This document shows, piece by piece, positions 2,531 through 62,800 of a stretch of DNA of 64,000 bases; within the stretch, counting starts at the first letter, position 1; every line of letters begins with the position of its first letter. The stretch spans positions 35,712,001-35,776,000 of the forward strand of contig OX597820.1 of assembly GCA_951406725.2 (NCBI GenBank), in the 5' to 3' direction. The translations under genes and the position numbers were made by a program. The notes under the pieces are model-generated. The model did no database searches. It saw nothing but the letters and a program-made list of their open reading frames with translations, and was not told where the DNA came from. This DNA is from Octopus vulgaris (Eukaryota).

Positions 2531-2739
2531 CAAAATGTGACCGCATGTGTACCGTTGGCGATTTTTTTCCTCTGTCTTCCCTTCTCTGGATCTTTCCTTC
2601 TCCTATGTTTCCGACGAAGAGCTCCGCTCGAAACGTTAAACCCTCCTTCTTTCCTTCTTTCCTGAGCGTCCAATAATACTATATTTGTTCCACGACCTCG
2701 CGTTGTTGTGTTTTTTTGTGCTTTCTTGTTTGGATTAAC
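2531..2739 (+). mobile_element. Short PLE pseudo-LTR-type fragment between (TA)n tracts, carrying a hammerhead motif
   Basis: Flanked by (TA)n. Shares ttcctgagcg..aatac and the GAAGAGC..GCTCGAAACGTTAAA block with the Neptune pLTR. Second copy at 58438-58630(-). Confidence 0.7.
2607..2641 (+). ncRNA. Minimal type-I hammerhead ribozyme motif, U4C core variant
   Basis: GTTT-CCGACGA-A-GAGC(TCC)GCTC-GAAA-CG-T-T-AAAC: stem I GTTT/AAAC, stem II GAGC/GCTC, palindromic stem III ACGT, GUU triplet. Confidence 0.6.
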
Positions 2740-11845: not shown

Positions 11846-11874
11846 TATAATAATAATAATAATATATATATATA

Positions 11875-12733
11875 TCTTCCCCTTCCCTCTGCTCCCTCAC
11901 TCCCTCTCTCCCCTTCTCTCTCTTTCCTCCTTCATCCCCCTCATCCCCTTCCTTCTCCCCCATCCTCTCCTCTCCCCCCTCCTCCTCCCCTCTTCTTCCC
12001 CTCCCCTTCTCTCCCCCTCTTCTCCCCCTCCCCCTCTTCTCCTCACTACACCACATGACTTTACACATCACATCACATATGATGTGCCATACTAATACAC
12101 ACACCAACTAATACATACTAATACGTATTAATACATACTAGTACATACTAATACTTACACCAACCCTATACATACACACGTCCAGACCCCGCATACGCAC
12201 TTATACTCTCTCTCACACACACACACACACTTATACATACCAATACGTACTAATACATACTAATACATACTAATACATACACCAACCCCATACATACGCA
12301 CGTCCAGACCAATCTTACGCACTAATACTCTCTCATACACACACACACACACACCCTTATACATACTAATACATACACCAACCCTATACATACACACATC
12401 CAGACCCCTCCCACGCACTTTTAGCTGGTCCCCCAACCCATTTATCAACCCTATTATCTCCCCTTATTTCGCTCTCGCGTCTCATGTTTGATCTTTGACC
12501 TCTGGCCGAAATCAGATCGCCATGTTGATTCGTTAGCTACTGCACGCATTTTTTTCTCTCCTTCTTTCTGTGTTTTTCTCTCTCTGTGTATCTTTCTGTT
12601 GAAGAGCGTAGGCTCGAAACGTTAAAGACTTGTTTTATTTATATTTCCTGAGCGCCATACTAATACAATTGTTCGTTTGTTTTCCACCTGCCTTCGTCTT
12701 TTGTTTATTTTCATAAAGCTTCCCGTTATATAT
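11875..12733 (+). repeat. 5' pseudo-LTR (5'-truncated copy of the element 3' end)
   Basis: Matches 16369-17240 apart from small indels in C/T and (CA)n runs. Contains three ~110-bp internal subrepeats (atactaatacatacaccaacc..tccagacc). Confidence 0.92.
12591..12628 (+). ncRNA. Hammerhead ribozyme motif in the 5' pLTR (A6U core variant)
   Basis: TCTTT-CTGTTGA-A-GAGC(GTAG)GCTC-GAAA-CG-T-T-AAAGA; predicted cut after 12623. Confidence 0.65.
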
Positions 12734-13349
12734 TATGCACTCACGTGGTCTCACTTTCATCCTATATTCTACCAATACCACTATCAACACTTACCTCTAC
12801 CTTGGATTTTCTTTACCTCTTGGATACTTACCATTGGCTGCACCTCTCTTTCGCGGATCAAAGTGACTTTGCATTGATGTGAAATCCTTAAAAAATATAC
12901 CACGACGTCTACACATTTCTCACCTTGAACTTTCAACCTTGAACTTGTTCGCATAAACTGTCCCGTTTGTTGTATTTTTATTTCTTCTTATATTACCACT
13001 TTTTTTACATTCATTTCATGCTTCCCACATTTTCCTGAATTTTTGTTCTCCTTTCCGTCTTTCTTCCCTCTCTGGATGTCCATACTCCGTTTCCTCTGCC
13101 TGCACCTCCCTTTTTTTGCCTCCCCCTCTCTCTGCTTCCCTTCTTTCTTTCCCTTTTCCGTTTGCCCCGTCTTTTCTGCCCCTATCGCTTACTTATCTAG
13201 TTTTTTCATACGATTATTATTTTTTTGTTTTTTTGAACGTTTGTTTTTTCCCCTTTTTTCGCTATCCTTTTTTTCTATTTTTTTCATACGATAATTTTTG
13301 TTTTTTGTTTTTTTTGTTTTTTCGAACGTTTTTTTTCCGCTATCCCATC

Positions 13350-16300
13350 ATGCCGGATCCTAGGTCCTACCTCCTCACCCTCCATCACCGTTTGAAGGAT
13401 CATCTACGTTCGCTTCCTGTATATTGCCTTCAGCCGTCCGTTAATCGCTCTCTACTTCTTTTTAAAAAAACCCGCTTCTCTAGCCATGTCTCTTTCCTAA
13501 GCCGCTGCCTACATCACCGACTCATCCCTAAAGGTTTCCGCCTCCACTTCCACCCTGCTCTCCACTCGGATTCTTCCATCTTACCCATACTCCGCACCAC
13601 ATCTTACCGCCTTATGCGGGCCACCATTCGCTCCAATCTCTCCAAACTACATGCCATCAACCGCCTTCTTCCTCCTGCTTTCTCCACCTTCTTCTCCTCT
13701 CTGCCGCCTCTATATGCTCCAAACACGCTACGCTTCATTATCCATTTGCATCAACTCTTCCATCAATTTCTTTCTGATACCAAACTTCGTAAACTCCAAT
13801 CACTCTTCCATTCCACCCTACCCGACGCCACTACCCCAACTCCTCCACCACCCTTCTCCCCTCCCGATAGGCTCCATCCACCCACACCTAACCCCACTGC
13901 CCCTCCCTACAACCCCTTCTCCCCTCCCGTTAGGCTCCATCCACCTACACCTAACCCTACTGCCCCGCCCAACCACCCCCCACACACCTCTCCAATCCCT
14001 CCCCCTCAGACCTCCACGAGACCTACCACCCCTCCTACTTCTATTCCATCCACCCCTTCTCCACTTCCGTCTGTTGTTACCATTCCCCCCGATCTTCCCC
14101 TCTCTGCGGCTGAACGCTCCGTCCTTGGTAGGGGTCTGCGTTTCATCCCCCTCACTCCATCCTGTAAGGAATTCCAGACGCGAGTTGATGTCCACAGCTT
14201 TGTGCGCCGTGTCCGGTTGGGTGCGCATTACCACGACTCGCCACCCACACCCAACGAAGAGGACGACTGCTTCACTGGCCTGGGTCGCCGACCATCCCCG
14301 TGGACGCCTGCCCCTGGCCAGATCCTAGCAGTGGATCTTTTCGCGGGCGCTTGTCAGCGTGCATTGGAGCGGTTCAACTTCTCCAGGCGCCAACGCCGCC
14401 TCAACATCTCCCCGGCTGAGCTCTTGGCTCTTCGTTCCCTCCAACGGCGCGCTGACATTATCATCAAACCGGCTGACAAGGGTGGAGCTGTAGTGGTGTG
14501 GCGCGCGGACCTCTATAGGGCCGAGGCTTTCCGCCAACTCAATGACACCTCCTTCTATTCCCCTCTGCCCTCTAACCCCACACGTAGCTACCAACAGACG
14601 GTATCCTCTACTGTCCAAGACCTCATCTCGTCCTCCCGTCTCCCCCGCACCGCATCCAACCTAATTGTGCGAACCCCACGTACCCCCACCATTTACTTCC
14701 TCCCCAAAATCCACAAACCCAAAAACCCTGGCCGCCCCATCGTCTCCGCCTGTAACTGCCCCACGGAGCTCATCTCTAAATACCTCGACCGTGTCCTTGC
14801 CCCCCTAGTGGCATCTCTTCCCTCCCACATCCACGATACCAACCATGCTCTCCGGCTTTTCAACTCTTTCTCCTTTCCTCCCGGCTCCTCCAAAATCCTT
14901 TTTACTATGGACATCCAAAGCCTCTATACTGTTATCCCTCACCACGAAGGACTGCAGGCCCTTCGACACTTTCTTGACCTCCGCTCTAACCCTGTACCTG
15001 ACACCTCCACACTCATTCGTCTGGCCGAACTTGTCCTTACTCTGAACTGCTTCTCGTTCGCGGGCGAGTTCTACCATCAGGTCTCGGGAGTGGCCATGGG
15101 AACGCGAATGGGCCCCAACTATGCGAACCTGTTCGTTGGCTATGTTGAGGCTCAAATATTCTCTAATTTCACTGGTCCCACTCCTGAACTATATGGTCGT
15201 TATATTGACGACATTATCGGTGCCACCTCACTCTCCCGCGAACATCTAGATTCCTTCCTCTCTTTCGTCCAATCTTTCCATCCAGCCCTCCACTTCACTT
15301 CCACTATCTCCAACACCTCTGTCTCCTTCCTCGACATTTCGGTTAGCATTCTTCACTCCACTCTTACCACCTCCATTCACTACAAACACACAGACTCACA
15401 CTCATACCTCAACTTCTCTTCCTCCCACCCAGAACACACCAAGCTTTCCATCCCCTATTCCCAATTCCTCCGTCTACGTAGGCTCTGTAGTGACGACCAT
15501 GACTTTGAGACTCAGTCTCAACGTATGGCTCACCACTTCACCCTACGTGGATACCCCGTCACCACTATCCACACCGCCCTTGCCAGAGCACGGTCCGTGG
15601 ACCGTGTATCTGCTCTCTCTCCCCGAACCCGCCCTGTAGTCTCCCGCCTCCCTTTTCCCCTCACTTACCACCCCACGACCCTACGTCTCCAACGCACCAT
15701 TCTTCGAGCTTTCCGTCATCTCCAGTCCGACCCGTCCACTTCACACCTCTTCCCTAACCGACCCCTCCCCTCTTTCAAACGAGCCCACAACCTTCGAGAC
15801 CTTTTGGTCAATAGCTCCTTCCCTGACCCTACCTCCCAACCCGGCTCGTTCCCCTGCTCCCGCCCACGTTGCCGCACTTGCCCTTACCTCTCCAACACCA
15901 CCCGCCTCACTAGCACCCACCATCGACCCTATCCCATCATCCACTCCTTCACCTGCACCTCCAGCAATATTATCTATTGCATCTCTTGCTCTCTCTGCAA
16001 TTCCTTGTACATCGGACAAACGGGACGCCGCTTGGCTGACCGGTTCGCGGAACACCTTCGTGACATCCACCTTGCGAACGACACACCGGTCTCACGCCAT
16101 TTCCGCTCCACCGGTCACTCCTTGCAACACCTATCTGTGTTCGGTTTGTCCTTACACAGAGGCCATCCGGATTCCCGTTTGCGCCGTGAACAGGAATTAA
16201 TCTTCTCTCTTCGCTCTTATACGCCATTTGGTCTCAACTCTCCCCCCTCCTCATCTAACCCCCCTCTCCCCCTTCCTCACCTATCCTTTCTCCCCACGAC

Positions 16301-16565
16301 CCCTACTTCTTCAGTCCTTCATCCTTTCACCCCTACTCCCCTTCCCTTCTTCCCTCTTTCTCCCTCCCTCTTCCCCTTCCCTCTGCTCCCTCACTCCCTC
16401 TCTCCCCTTCTCTCTCTTTCCTCCTTCATCCCCCTCATCCCCTTCCTTCTCCCCATCCTCTCCTCTCCCCCCTTCTCCTCCCCCCTTCTCCTCCCCTCTT
16501 CTTCCCCTCCCCTTCTCTCCCCCCTCTTCTCCCCCTCCCCCTCTTCTCCTCACTACACCACATGA
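13350..16565 (+). CDS. PLE polyprotein (1071 aa): reverse transcriptase, CxxxxCxxC linker and GIY-YIG endonuclease (Neptune clade)
   Basis: First ATG in the open frame is at 13350 (MPDPRSY). Motifs KPADKGGAVVVW, PKIHK..PGRPIVS, TMDIQSLYT, GVAMGTRMGPNYANL, RYIDD, FLD, CSRPRCRTC and IIYCISCSLCNSLYIGQTGRRLADRFAEH. No stops or frameshifts. Confidence 0.95.
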   Translation: MPDPRSYLLTLHHRLKDHLRSLPVYCLQPSVNRSLLLFKKTRFSSHVSFLSRCLHHRLIPKGFRLHFHPALHSDSSILPILRTTSYRLMRATIRSNLSKLHAINRLLPPAFSTFFSSLPPLYAPNTLRFIIHLHQLFHQFLSDTKLRKLQSLFHSTLPDATTPTPPPPFSPPDRLHPPTPNPTAPPYNPFSPPVRLHPPTPNPTAPPNHPPHTSPIPPPQTSTRPTTPPTSIPSTPSPLPSVVTIPPDLPLSAAERSVLGRGLRFIPLTPSCKEFQTRVDVHSFVRRVRLGAHYHDSPPTPNEEDDCFTGLGRRPSPWTPAPGQILAVDLFAGACQRALERFNFSRRQRRLNISPAELLALRSLQRRADIIIKPADKGGAVVVWRADLYRAEAFRQLNDTSFYSPLPSNPTRSYQQTVSSTVQDLISSSRLPRTASNLIVRTPRTPTIYFLPKIHKPKNPGRPIVSACNCPTELISKYLDRVLAPLVASLPSHIHDTNHALRLFNSFSFPPGSSKILFTMDIQSLYTVIPHHEGLQALRHFLDLRSNPVPDTSTLIRLAELVLTLNCFSFAGEFYHQVSGVAMGTRMGPNYANLFVGYVEAQIFSNFTGPTPELYGRYIDDIIGATSLSREHLDSFLSFVQSFHPALHFTSTISNTSVSFLDISVSILHSTLTTSIHYKHTDSHSYLNFSSSHPEHTKLSIPYSQFLRLRRLCSDDHDFETQSQRMAHHFTLRGYPVTTIHTALARARSVDRVSALSPRTRPVVSRLPFPLTYHPTTLRLQRTILRAFRHLQSDPSTSHLFPNRPLPSFKRAHNLRDLLVNSSFPDPTSQPGSFPCSRPRCRTCPYLSNTTRLTSTHHRPYPIIHSFTCTSSNIIYCISCSLCNSLYIGQTGRRLADRFAEHLRDIHLANDTPVSRHFRSTGHSLQHLSVFGLSLHRGHPDSRLRREQELIFSLRSYTPFGLNSPPSSSNPPLPLPHLSFLPTTPTSSVLHPFTPTPLPFFPLSPSLFPFPLLPHSLSPLLSLSSFIPLIPFLLPILSSPPFSSPLLLPSSSPPLLSPLFSPSPSSPHYTT

Positions 16566-17232
16566 CTTTACACATCACATCACATATGATGTGCCATACT
16601 AATACACACACCAACTAATACATACTAATACGTACTAATACATACTAGTACATACTAATACTTACACCAACCCTATACATACACACGTCCAGACCCCGCA
16701 TACGCACTTATACTCTCTCTCACACACACACACACCTATACATACCAATACGTACTAATACATACTAATACATACTAATACATACACCAACCCCATACAT
16801 ACGCACGTCCAGACCAATCTTACGCACTAATACTCTCTCATACACACACACACACACACACCCATATACATACTAATACATACACCAACCCTATACATAC
16901 ACACATCCAGACCCCTCCCACGCACTTTTAGCTGGTCCCCCAACCCATTTATCAACCCTATTATCTCCCCTTATTTCGCTCTCGCGTCTCATGTTTGATC
17001 TTTGACCTCTGGCCGAAATCAGATCGCCATGTTGATTCGTTAGCTACTGCACGCATTTTTTTCTCTCCTTCTTTCTGTGTTTTTCTCTCTCTGTGTATCT
17101 TTCTGTTGAAGAGCGTAGGCTCGAAACGTTAAAGACTTGTTTTATTTATATTTCCTGAGCGCCATACTAATACAATTGTTCGTTTGTTTTCCACCTGCCT
17201 TCGTCTTTTGTTTATTTTCATAAAGCTTCCCG

Positions 17233-17240
<8 letters not shown>
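16369..17240 (+). repeat. 3' pseudo-LTR (overlaps the ORF C-terminus)
   Basis: Direct repeat of 11875-12733; ends ..aagcttcccgtt followed by (AT)n. Confidence 0.92.
17098..17135 (+). ncRNA. Hammerhead ribozyme motif in the 3' pLTR (A6U core variant)
   Basis: Identical to 12591-12628; predicted cut after 17130. Confidence 0.65.
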
Positions 17241-17284
<44 letters not shown>

Positions 17285-25473: not shown

Positions 25474-25598
25474 TCAAAAATTAGGTTATGTATAGTAATG
25501 CATAGCATTGTGTGTGTATGTGTGTATGTGTGTGTGCGTGATGTAGGTTCGGTAATGCAAACAATAACTTAAAACATAAATATATGTATGTATGCATG

Positions 25599-25645
<47 letters not shown>

Positions 25646-25839
25646 ACACACATGAATTTCTTTCCTTAATAATCGGCAAAAGCTAGAGTAACTCAAGGAC
25701 TGAGAGTTTCTCTTTTTATTTATTTATTTATTTATTTATTTTGTTCTCCCTCCATTTTTCCTCTCTCAGTCCTTTCTTTTGAAAAGTGTAGCCTCGAAAC
25801 GTCAAAGATTGTCTTTGCCTTTTGCTTTCTGTAAATTTG

Positions 25840-25881
<42 letters not shown>

Positions 25882-26075
25882 CAAATTTACAGAAAGCAAA
25901 AGGCAAAGACAATCTTTGACGTTTCGAGGCTACACTTTTCAAAAGAAAGGACTGAGAGAGGAAAAATGGAGGGAGAACAAAATAAATAAATAAATAAATA
26001 AATAAAAAGAGAAACTCTCAGTCCTTGAGTTACTCTAGCTTTTGCCGATTATTAAGGAAAGAAATTCATGTGTGT

Positions 26076-26122
<47 letters not shown>

Positions 26123-26252
26123 CATGCATACATACATATATTTATGTTTTAAGTTATTGTTTGCATTACCGAACCTACATCACGCACACACACATACACA
26201 CATACACACACACACACACAATGCTATGCATTACTATACATAACCTAATTTT

Positions 26253-58437: not shown

Positions 58438-58629
58438 AGTTAATCCAAACAAGAAAGCACAAAACAAAAACACAACAACGCGAGGACGTGGAACAAATAT
58501 AGTATTATTGGACGGTCAGGAAAGAAGGAAAGAAGGAGGATTTAACGTTTCGAGCGGAGCTCTTCGTCGGAAACATAGGAGAAGGAAAGATCCAGAGAAG
58601 GGAAGACAGAGGAAAAAAATCGCCAACCA

Positions 58630-59631: not shown

Positions 59632-59795
59632 TTCCCTCCTTGTTTCTCTCCTTGTTTTTTCTGTGTCCCTTTCTGTAGAAGGGCGAAGGCTCGAAACGTA
59701 AAAGACTTTTTCTATTCCTGAGCGTTATACTAATACATCTGTTTGTTTTGTACACCACCTGTCTTCGTCTTTTGTTTTTTTCGTAAACTCTCCCT
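59629..59795 (+). mobile_element. Neptune-related pLTR fragment between (TA)n tracts, with a hammerhead at 59669-59704
   Basis: CTTT-CTGTAGA-A-GGGC(GAAG)GCTC-GAAA-CG-T-A-AAAG; downstream ttcctgagcg..ctaatac..ccacctg.cttcgtcttttg matches the pLTR 3' end. Confidence 0.8.
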
Positions 59796-61669
59796 ATATA
59801 TAGGCTGACACGAACACTCGCATGGAGATCCACAGAGCTAACGCCAACCAACGGCGGCTACGGCCACAAAAGGGAGGCTACAACGGCAGGTAGGAAAATA
59901 GAAGGGACGAGACGAGCGAGCGGCGAGCGCAAACAGATCGGACGGCGGCACGTTCGTCGAGCAGTACCGCGCGGGAACCTCTATCATTTTCGTTCGTCGT
60001 CCGCGCGTGCGAACTCCCTGTTGCTCGGCGGGTCTGCTGCTGCTGTGCTCCGTTACGTGTCCGCCGCGCTTTCGAGCGAGCGGCCGTCGCTGCGCAACGA
60101 TGACGGTCTGGCATGGCGGAAGACGGAGGATCGAGCTGCGCGCGCTAGTCGGGCTGGAAGGAGACCAACGAAAGAAGAATTCCGTTCCTTCCCTTCCCCG
60201 GCGTTCAGGAAATGTCACCGGCTCAACGAAACCACCCAGCTGATACGACCCGAACGGTGTCGTGACGTGCTTCCTAAAACCAACGTTTGCCCCCACGTCG
60301 CTAATTTGACCAAAAACGCTATTCAAGAGCACGTATTTTCCTTATATAGCGCCTTCAGATTTATTACCCCGACAGTTTCGTTCAACCACGATATGGAGTA
60401 GGAAACATGGCTTCCTGAATTCTTCGAATCAACGCCAGCTGATTTATAGTTATTGACAAGTTAGTGGAATGTTGGTTAGAAGATGTAAACAACGATAGAG
60501 AATATATCATTGACTGATTTTTTTAAATTGTTGAAAAATAAAAGATTAAAAATAGGAAAGGAAAAAAAACGAACGAATTTATCTGCCAACTCAATATATG
60601 TTTATTTTTTATATACAACTACTGTGAATGTTTAAACATCTCGCTTAGCTCATCCTTCACCTATAATCATCACTATCAGCCTCTGTTGCCTCTCCCCCAT
60701 CTCGCCTCTCTCCACCTCTCTCCGCCTTCCCTTCACCTTTATCACCTAATTCCCTTCAAATTCATCTCACAATTGACGATTATGAAAGATAATTAACCGT
60801 AGATAATCTCCTCGCTAAATTTAGCGTATGAGTACGAAGTTAAATCTAATCGTCAATACGTGAGTCAAAAACTAAAAAAATTATATCATCAAGGAGATGG
60901 TTGGTGCAGAGGTGAGATAAAATTATTTTGTAAGCAAGGTTTCATTCTAAATAAAGAATTTAAACTATATATAAACACGCATATATATGATTTCTGTTAA
61001 TTCAATAGATAGTTTTAAAGGTCAGAAAGTTTTCATGGCATCATTTTATATGTATATATACTATCCACACTACTTTTTTAAAATCAAAACAGCCATGGCA
61101 CTTACGAGATCTTAGAATGTGTATCTGAATCAGTGTCAATGCAGGTATACACACACCACACACACACACAAATACACACCACACACATAACACACGCGCA
61201 CATACACACAAATACATACCATACACACGCACACACAAGCACACACATACATAAACCACACACATACACACCGCACTCGCGCACACACACATACACACAC
61301 CACAAACACCACACAAGCGCGCATACACACAAATACACGCCACACACACCACACACTCGTACATACATGCTCTCGAATACACACGCAAACACCGCGCACA
61401 CACAAAGAGTCACACACACACCACACACACACACACACATACAAATACACACTACACAAACTCCCACACACACACTTACATACACACCAAGCATACATAC
61501 GCACACACACACATACACACACACCACATACACGCAAAATTTCTTTCAAACTTAAACCTTTATCACATTATACCTGTTATGAGTTGCCCTATTTATCAGT
61601 TGTCCTAGATGTCAGTTGTCTCGGTTTGAGTTGTCCTGGTATCAGTTGCTCTAGAACCATATATATATA

Positions 61670-61708: not shown

Positions 61709-62800
61709 TTCTCGAGAGTGGCCATGGAGACGAGAATGGGCCCCAACTATGCGAACCTGTTCATTGGCTACGTTGAGGCCCAAATATTCTCACGATTCAC
61801 TGGTCACACTTCCGAACTTTACGGTCGTTATATTGATGACTGCATCGGTGTGACCTCACTTTATCGCGAACAACTAGACTCCTTCCTCTCTTTGGTCCAA
61901 GTCTTTCATTCTGCCCGCGAATTCTTCTGCACTATTTCCAACACTTCCGTCGCATTTCTCTACATTTCTCTCAGCATACACCACTCCGCTCTCACTACTT
62001 CCATCCACTATTAACACACCGACTCACACTCCTACCTTAACTTCTCCTACTCCCACCCTACCCGCACCAAGCTCTCCATCCCCTACTCCCAATTCCTCCG
62101 TCTGCGCAGGCTCTGCAGTAACAACCAAGACTTTAAGACTCAGTCTCAACTCGTGCCTCGCCACTTCATTCTTCGTGGATATCCATTCACCAACATCCAT
62201 ACAGCCCTTGCCAGGGCGCAATCTGTGGGCCGTGCCTCTGCTCCCTTTCCCTGAGCCCGCCCCACCGTTACCCGTCTCCCGTTTCCACTCTTATACCATC
62301 CCTCTAGCCTGCCCCTCCAACGCACTATTCTCCGAGCCTTCCGCGACTCCAGTCGACCTCTCCATCTCACACATTTTTCCCAACCTACCTTATCCCTCCT
62401 TCCCTAACCCCACCTCACAGCCTGGATCGTTCTCCTGCTCCTGCCCATGATGCCGTGTCTGGCCCTACCTCTCCATCACTACCATCCTCACAAGCACCCA
62501 TCATCGTTCCCATCATTTCACCGACTCCTTTACCTACACTTCCAGCAACGTCATTTACTGCATCTCCCGCTCTTTCTGCCCTTCTCTGTACATTGGTCAA
62601 ACGGGATGTCGCTTAGCTAACTGGTTCGTGGAGTACCTCCGAGACACAGACTCTGAGTTCGGATTGTCTTTGCACAGAAGTCATCCGGTCTCCCGTCTTC
62701 GTCGTGAACAGAAATTATCTTTTCCCTTCGCTCCTTTGCGCCACATGGGCTCAACTACCCTCCTTTCTTCATCTGACACTTCCTCTATTCACCTCTCTTC
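61707..62800 (+). pseudogene. 5'-truncated decayed Neptune PLE copy (RT C-terminal half to GIY-YIG) starting at (TA)n
   Basis: VAMETRMGPNYANLFIGYVEAQIF..YGRYIDD and FLRLRRLCS, homologous to 15082-16260; stops and deletions present. Confidence 0.92.

What the first reader, a model, noticed from the sequence alone, without database searches (positions are those of the whole stretch)
12591..17135. Non-canonical hammerhead (CUGUUGA plus extra A) in both pLTRs would release a 4507-nt unit-length RNA
Seen: identical motifs with predicted cuts after 12623 and 17130 bracket the whole ORF. Position 6 is U instead of the normally invariant A, and an extra A precedes stem II. The related copy at 59669 keeps U6 (CTGTAGA) with a G-U-tolerated stem II change. 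The cleavage-site base varies only among U, A and C across copies (12623, 59700, 25803), never G, matching the NUH rule. Inference: a lineage-fixed core variant processes the PLE transcript, possibly through pairing of the two motifs via the ACGU palindrome and possibly followed by circularisation.
Basis: partly seen in the sequence, partly recalled or inferred. Interest (0 to 1): 0.75.

Follow-up and report, generated by a model that had tools for sequence, protein, structure and literature searches.

The report
Retrotransposon hammerhead with family-wide A6U core
A young, very abundant jumping gene in an animal genome carries at both repeated ends a hammerhead self-cutting RNA motif with one normally fixed core letter changed across the whole family, and its two ends look copied from one template, so it likely still cuts slowly and may help make a circular RNA template, though cutting is untested.

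Summary
Observation confirmed: identical minimal hammerhead motifs (12591-12628, 17098-17135; predicted cuts 4507 nt apart) lie in the repeated ends of an intact Neptune-type Penelope-like element. The extra A, the ACGU dimer and the circle idea are published features; only A6U is unusual. U6 is family-wide: 23,726 U6 versus 8,267 A6 motifs in the genome. In 69 copies picked by their flanks, only N7 and H17, the two positions a hammerhead tolerates, vary at 10% or more (2/37 sites versus 44/105 in flanks). So the motif is under hammerhead-shaped constraint; selection on U6 itself is not shown. A linear 4507-nt RNA cannot be the template: insertions end 103 nt past the cut, keep both motifs intact, and show no excess of 5' ends at the cut. 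The two repeats within a copy share private variants (0.11% versus 0.56% divergence), so both come from one template: a religated circle (favoured) or a template jump. No cleavage, transcript end or circle was observed. The scan noted a fixed A6U family in another genome before (e1-9559914). Lünse 2017, the likeliest prior report, was not readable. New variant of a known kind.

The parts
11875..17233 (+). Penelope-like retrotransposon, partial tandem (about 1.19 units), inserted in (TA)n
11875..12733 (+). upstream repeat (pseudo-LTR): 5'-truncated second round of the element's 3' part
   Evidence: 857/859 identical to 16369-17240; start varies among copies
16369..17240 (+). downstream repeat (pseudo-LTR)
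12591..12628 (+). minimal type I hammerhead motif 1, U6 at 12599, extra A at 12603, predicted cut after 12623
   Evidence: sequence; constraint pattern; cleavage untested
17098..17135 (+). minimal type I hammerhead motif 2, identical, predicted cut after 17130
12727..12733 (+). internal TATATAT directly after the family's fixed 3' end; inferred priming site by microhomology with (TA)n targets
   Evidence: exactly TATATAT in 17 of 18 tandem junctions; role inferred
17131..17233 (+). 103-nt tail between predicted cut and the fixed 3' end of insertions
   Evidence: 19 of 20 terminal ends at +103, one at +104
13350..16565 (+). single ORF from first Met (frame open from 12957): RT, Cys linker, GIY-YIG endonuclease
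14709..15278 (+). reverse transcriptase core (Pfam RVT_1, YIDD at 15201)
   Evidence: E 2.3e-07
15855..15881 (+). CX4CxxC linker (Neptune/Nematis type)
   Evidence: definition from PMC8557442 passages
15969..16103 (+). GIY-YIG-type endonuclease with CCHH residues
   Evidence: motif match and tblastn to relatives; Pfam gave no EN hit
17234..17281 (.). (TA)n target microsatellite, right flank (left flank 11863-11875)
59669..59705 (+). short copy of the older U6-A7-A17 subfamily, two private changes in stem-loop II
25771..25808 (+). decayed copy (G5U, broken stem II), mirrored in a 352-nt perfect inverted repeat

Best explanation
The two identical motifs lie in the repeated ends of a young Penelope-like retrotransposon and are its standard minimal hammerhead with one family-wide core change (A6 to U), which likely still works as a slow, helper-dependent self-cutting RNA that would let the element's RNA be cut and rejoined into a circle. 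Steps: (1, shown) intact element, fixed U6, constraint confined to the motif. (2, predicted) a single motif folds into an inactive rod in which U6 pairs with A15.1 and hides the ACGU palindrome. (3, inferred from published PLE work) the element's own protein helps two motifs pair through ACGU and cut after 12623 and 17130. (4, inferred) the 4507-nt product is religated. (5, end point shown, mechanism inferred) the endonuclease nicks (TA)n, reverse transcription primes at UAUAUAU 103 nt past the junction and runs 1.1-1.4 times round, producing partial tandems whose two repeats come from one template (shown).
For: Only N7 and H17 vary at >=10% among 37 motif sites in 69 flank-anchored copies, against 44 of 105 flank sites (Fisher p 1.4e-5). 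Along a ladder-like tree N7 runs U,C,G,A,C,U and H17 A,U,A,U while the rest stays (backbone partly unresolved). No G17 subfamily in the U6 family (1/69; 1/100). In all 8 public runs laid, four organism labels, contigs from other subfamilies stop matching at 12583-12593 and 12626-12631, the motif's edges. Upstream repeat vs own downstream repeat 0.11%, vs other copies' 0.51-0.56%, in 17 of 17 copies lower (Wilcoxon p 1.5e-5); 8 private and 7 shared variants occur in both repeats, 0 are upstream-only or downstream-only lineages. Fixed 3' end, variable 5' ends, upstream repeats about 0.63-1.6 kb in 17 of 21 long copies, precise junctions. A PLE hammerhead cleaves only with the element's protein (PMC11167929). 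A natural A6C variant keeps low activity (PMC3088659; PMC7151607).
Against: No cleavage, transcript end or circle seen. Mutations in CUGA give low activity (PMC9901934); A6C cut the Mg2+ rate to 3.6e-6 per min against 0.3 in one ribozyme. In the anole element, hammerhead mutants inserted normally in vitro, uncut RNA was the dominant substrate, and no RNA-seq reads ended at the cut. The active dimer is predicted about 9 kcal/mol above two monomer rods (-12.9 vs -21.6; A6 version -18.6). 5' ends of short copies show no excess at the cut: 8 of 37 at cut+1 versus 9 of 37 at another TA site; 4-5 versus 4-5 of 32. Stem II and loop II are invariant, so there is no covariation, and the constraint could be for protein binding. 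U6 being invariant is not itself significant, since about 60% of flank sites are also invariant at that threshold. One copy (L145) has repeats from different templates (6/861), showing that template switching occurs. A sister family is dominated by another core change (U4C, 67/100) and holds 4/100 G17 copies, so weak cores amplify well here.
Confidence: 0.45

Rival explanations
1. The motif no longer cuts appreciably; its fold or sequence is kept as a binding or regulatory site for the element's protein. The template is uncut RNA, and the second repeat arises when reverse transcriptase transfers between the RNA's redundant ends or jumps to another RNA.
For: A6 changes are damaging; U6 zips the core into a rod (P of G5-C15.2 0.98 vs 0.02 with A6); cleavage dispensable in vitro for the anole PLE; no excess of ends at the cut; L145 chimeric; loop II as invariant as the core; Naiad PLEs thrive without canonical hammerheads.
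Against: The only free sites are exactly N7 and H17, with G17 avoided at subfamily level; junctions are precise in 17 of 18 tandems and all 38 motifs are intact; variants shared by both repeats reach to within about 120 nt of the cut, leaving little room for a separately inherited upstream end.
Confidence: 0.3
2. The U6 hammerhead cuts slowly, but cutting serves another end (trimming the message for translation or limiting element RNA), while the uncut fraction is the template; U6 tunes cutting down so that enough template survives.
For: Hammerhead-shaped constraint; insertions need sequence on both sides of the cut; the two most abundant motif groups sampled in this genome both carry weakened CUGA cores; no A6 subfamily arose by reversion (9 A6 copies need 8 changes).
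Against: Needs a separate mechanism for same-template repeats; purifying selection on U6 not shown.
Confidence: 0.18
3. The motif is a dead relic hitch-hiking on a successful element, and repeats are homogenised by gene conversion after insertion.
For: Pairwise identity alone cannot exclude conversion; the youngest subfamily is nearly clonal (RT 99-100% identical in 116 scored copies).
Against: 35 of 37 motif sites unchanged across subfamilies whose flanks differ at 44 of 105 sites and whose endonuclease pieces are 65-93% identical to this one; conversion would have to be near-complete in 16 of 17 very young copies.
Confidence: 0.07

Closest known systems
Minimal type I hammerheads (min-HHR) in pLTRs of metazoan Penelope-like elements (Cervera and de la Pena 2014, PMC4209133)
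   Same: Place in both pLTRs, 4-5 bp stem I, extra nucleotide between 9 and 10.1, G10.1-C11.1, CG palindrome at 15.2-16.2, U-rich flanks, dimer and circle model.
   Different: U at position 6. All 44 rows seen in their alignment have A6, but their descriptor demanded 'cuganga', so it could not find this variant. 33 of 33 sense-strand motifs beside related RTs in 78 metagenome loci have A6 under a scan that left position 6 free (some loci are near-duplicates).
Natural A6C hammerhead of phage Bcep176 (Perreault 2011, PMC3088659; Naghdi 2020, PMC7151607)
   Same: Natural pyrimidine at position 6; low activity in Mg2+, rescued by Mn2+.
   Different: A single phage example with C6 and a full stem III; here U6 in about 24,000 copies of a dimer-type motif.
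Poseidon element PAc of Anolis (Frangieh 2024, PMC11167929)
   Same: Hammerhead near the pLTR end, internal start of reverse transcription at the tail end, AT-rich targets.
   Different: PAc is a Poseidon-clade element whose cut site lies inside the ORF start; here a Cys-linker element with the ORF about 730 nt downstream of the cut.
Neptune clade of EN+ Penelope-like elements (Craig 2021, PMC8557442)
   Same: RT, CX2-5CxxC linker, C-terminal GIY-YIG with CCHH, microsatellite targets, partial tandems.
   Different: Clade not tested with reference sequences; Nematis shares the linker. Tail here is 103 nt past the cut.

Membership tests
EN+ Penelope-like element | Single ORF with RT and C-terminal GIY-YIG endonuclease | tested here: met
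   RVT_1 hit; GIY-YIG/CCHH motif and tblastn to relatives
EN+ Penelope-like element | Pseudo-LTRs from partial tandem arrangement, fixed 3' end, variable 5' truncation | tested here: met
Neptune clade | CX2-5CxxC linker between RT and EN; microsatellite targets | tested here: met
   CSRPRCRTC at 15855; (TA)n flanks
Neptune clade | RT phylogeny groups with Neptune rather than Nematis | not tested
   no named reference sequences fetched
PLE minimal type I hammerhead | Stems I and II with G10.1-C11.1 | tested here: met
   sequence; both stems in the predicted fold; no covariation within the family
PLE minimal type I hammerhead | Extra nucleotide 9.1 and palindromic 15.2-16.2 | tested here: met
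   A12603; ACGU 12619-12622; published features
PLE minimal type I hammerhead | Core consensus CUGANGA | tested here: not met
   U6 in 68 of 69 in-register copies; other ten core positions canonical
PLE minimal type I hammerhead | NUH cleavage triplet | tested here: met
   GUU here; A 50, U 17, C 1, G 1
Hammerhead ribozyme (functional) | Site-specific self-cleavage | not testable with these tools
   only contig data available
Retrozyme-like circular RNA intermediate | Covalently closed unit-length RNA | tested here: inconclusive
   same-template repeats fit a circle, a template jump or conversion; no RNA evidence

The most novel reading that the evidence does not exclude
Probability: 0.3. Interest if true: 0.8.

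Novelty: new variant of a known kind. Interest (0 to 1): 0.5.

Why it matters
A6 is treated as an invariant hammerhead core base and is written into the search descriptors, so tens of thousands of U6 motifs per genome are missed. If U6 cleaves, it widens the natural catalytic core and offers a conditional ribozyme. Separately, what hammerheads do in Penelope-like elements is an open question; this family is young, intact, and its copies record that both repeats come from one template, which makes it a good system to test circle versus template jump directly.

Tried and rejected
Rfam scan: no hammerhead family among 150 of 247 matches shown. Alternative registers that would restore CUGAAGA (reading UUGAAGA, or a 3-nt bulge) break stem I or II by inspection: rejected. 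Idea that A6U and the sister family's U4C converge on stabilising the same inactive helix: rejected, A6>U ranks 7 of 33 and 23 of 33, U4>C 22 and 16 of 33 core substitutions in the two backgrounds. An A6 subfamily with the same stem II: not found; 602 non-U6 copies, first 100 are C 71, A 19, G 10, A6 copies scattered on the tree, though three sit among the basal rows. Fossil cleavage signal in 5' junctions: none (small samples, confounded by a TA at the cut). No RNA holder listed on record; only contigs, so no transcript ends. The variant tables omit 12599 but also omit the known variable 12600, so they carry no weight. No ORF found within 1.5 kb of 50 loci of the U4C family. Lünse et al. 2017 was not held. 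First repeat comparison included low-complexity tracts; it was redone on clean sites, same direction.

Full report
Observation. The motif is at 12591-12628 and, identically, at 17098-17135, with U17 at 12623 and 17130, 4507 apart. Both copies sit in a direct repeat (11875-12733 and 16369-17240, 857 of 859 aligned bases identical) around a 1202-codon open frame with an RT core, a CX4CxxC linker and a GIY-YIG/CCHH-type endonuclease. The insertion lies in (TA)n. This is an endonuclease-bearing Penelope-like element of Neptune type by its linker (definition from passages of PMC8557442; no clade tree built). The host is a 2.8-Gb animal genome.

What is ordinary. Cervera and de la Pena 2014 (PMC4209133; parts 1-2 of 4 of the text, passages and part 2 of supplementary file 2; supplementary file 1 could not be searched) describe the nucleotide between 9 and 10.1, the palindromic 15.2-16.2, dimer cleavage and the circle model for these motifs. 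Beside related RTs in 78 metagenome loci, a scan with positions 6 and 7 free found 33 sense-strand motifs in 31 loci, all A6, 31 with the extra nucleotide; four antisense hits gave 3 A6 and one weak C6. Only U6 is unusual.

U6 is fixed in the family. Exact motif: 6,181 copies, control 0. U6 with any N7: 23,726, against 8,267 A6 motifs under the matching pattern. Same stem II with another base at 6: 602, of which the first 100 are C 71, A 19, G 10, as expected of mutation after insertion. In a tree of 61 family copies and 4 outgroup rows, 9 A6 copies need 8 changes (shuffled mean 8.7). The family is young at its tip: 116 scored RT matches are 99-100% identical and free of stops. Older members have RT or endonuclease pieces 65-93% identical. 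Four coded organism labels hold the stretch.

Constraint. I sampled copies by flanking anchors only (15,515 matches; first 70 of the 100 listed were fetched; one with a deletion dropped). In 69, only N7 (U 26, A 19, C 14, G 10) and H17 (A 50, U 17, C 1, G 1) vary at 10% or more among 37 motif sites, against 44 of 105 flank sites (Fisher p 1.4e-5). These are the two core positions a hammerhead leaves free (established knowledge; consensus). On the tree N7 changes about five times and H17 three times along a ladder (36 of 62 inner branches unresolved). Contigs from eight public runs peak in depth on the motif and lose similarity at its edges. Limits: stems and loop II are invariant, so there is no covariation; and U6 being invariant is not by itself evidence of selection for U.

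Could U6 cut? Untested. A natural A6C ribozyme has low but detectable activity (PMC3088659, section 8 and passages), poor in Mg2+ and rescued by Mn2+ (PMC7151607, parts 1-2 of 4); CUGA mutants were low in a deep scan (PMC9901934, passages). Folding predicts that U6 pairs with A15.1 and zips the monomer into a rod (probability of G5-C15.2 0.98, 0.44-0.98 across N7 states, against 0.00-0.10 with A6), and the active dimer lies about 9 kcal/mol above two monomers. The anole PLE hammerhead cleaved only with the element's protein, was not needed for insertion in vitro, and left no read ends at its cut (PMC11167929, passages). So a slow, protein-assisted ribozyme is plausible and a dead one is not excluded.

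What RNA is copied. I fetched 20 of the long-frame copies listed and added the window. Of 20 terminal ends, 19 lie 103 nt and one 104 nt past the predicted cut; 17 of 21 copies carry an upstream repeat of about 0.63-1.6 kb with variable start; all 38 motifs are intact; 17 of 18 tandem junctions read exactly TATATAT. A linear RNA cut at both motifs would give only a 103-nt product from that start. Such products are not enriched: of 37 distinct 5' junctions in a 22-nt window, 8 fall at cut+1, 4 at +2 and 9 at the TA in loop II (counted by hand from 100 of 619 rows); 4-5 versus 4-5 of 32. The template is therefore uncut or rejoined.

Same-template repeats. On clean sites (low-complexity tracts left out), an upstream repeat differs from its own downstream repeat by 0.11%, from other copies' downstream repeats by 0.51% and upstream repeats by 0.56% (17 of 17 lower, p 1.5e-5). 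Eight private and seven shared variants occur in both repeats of a copy; none marks an upstream-only or downstream-only lineage; 14 occur in one repeat only. Plain read-through of a tandem parent predicts separate lineages, so the repeat is regenerated often from one template. A religated circle explains this and the precise junctions; strand transfer on uncut RNA or gene conversion can also. L145 (6 differences in 861) shows that switching between templates happens. No clean informative variant lay downstream of the cut; one at 17227 in L134 is at an indel edge.

Novelty. Searches for a natural A6U hammerhead found none: 'hammerhead' with 'A6U' gave one paper on twister ribozymes (listing only); core spellings gave 15 of 56 listings, none evidently on this. 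Lünse, Weinberg and Breaker 2017, on PLE hammerhead variants, was seen only as a reference and may hold U6 examples. Also seen: PMC6765202 and PMC3846280 (passages), PMC2377424 (abstract), PMC11014351 (one passage), bioRxiv 2026.07.22.740005 (part 1 of 5, supplements closed).

Verdict. A real, constrained core variant of a known motif in a known element. Interest 0.5.

Noticed in passing
window 2608-2640 (+) and 58541-58573 (-); loci L269-L318: A sister repeat family (stem II GAGC-UCC-GCUC, 10,288 matches) is dominated by a second core variant, U4C (67 of 100 listed), and holds a small G17 group (4 of 100). No ORF within 1.5 kb of 50 loci, so it may be non-autonomous.
   Followed up: partly
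window 25509-26212: Perfect 352-nt inverted repeat centred on (TA)n, carrying a decayed hammerhead copy on each arm, tail to tail; 100% identical arms around an old copy suggest a recent fold-back or an assembly artefact.
   Followed up: no
window 61712-62749: 5'-truncated, stop-interrupted older copy of the same element lineage, 55-76% identical in protein, starting after (TA)n.
   Followed up: partly
loci L131-L150: Upstream repeat lengths cluster at 0.63-1.6 kb with none between about 80 and 630 nt and none longer except one multi-unit copy (L137); unexplained, and the sample was chosen for long open frames.
   Followed up: no
window 12600 (N7) across subfamilies: N7 changed about five times along the lineage, faster than the flank average; may be chance, hypermutability or tuning of activity.
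   Followed up: no
G000:C1:3779215 and C1:4092822: Two U6 copies share a different stem-loop II (UUCG loop, U-U mismatch), a possible minor subfamily.
   Followed up: no
window 59790-60300: GC-rich stretch directly after the short copy at 59669, unlike the AT-rich surroundings; possibly another element or a promoter island.
   Followed up: no
window 12957-13349: The reading frame stays open for 131 codons upstream of the first Met, through a T-rich leader; open-frame lengths vary widely among copies, so likely not coding.
   Followed up: no
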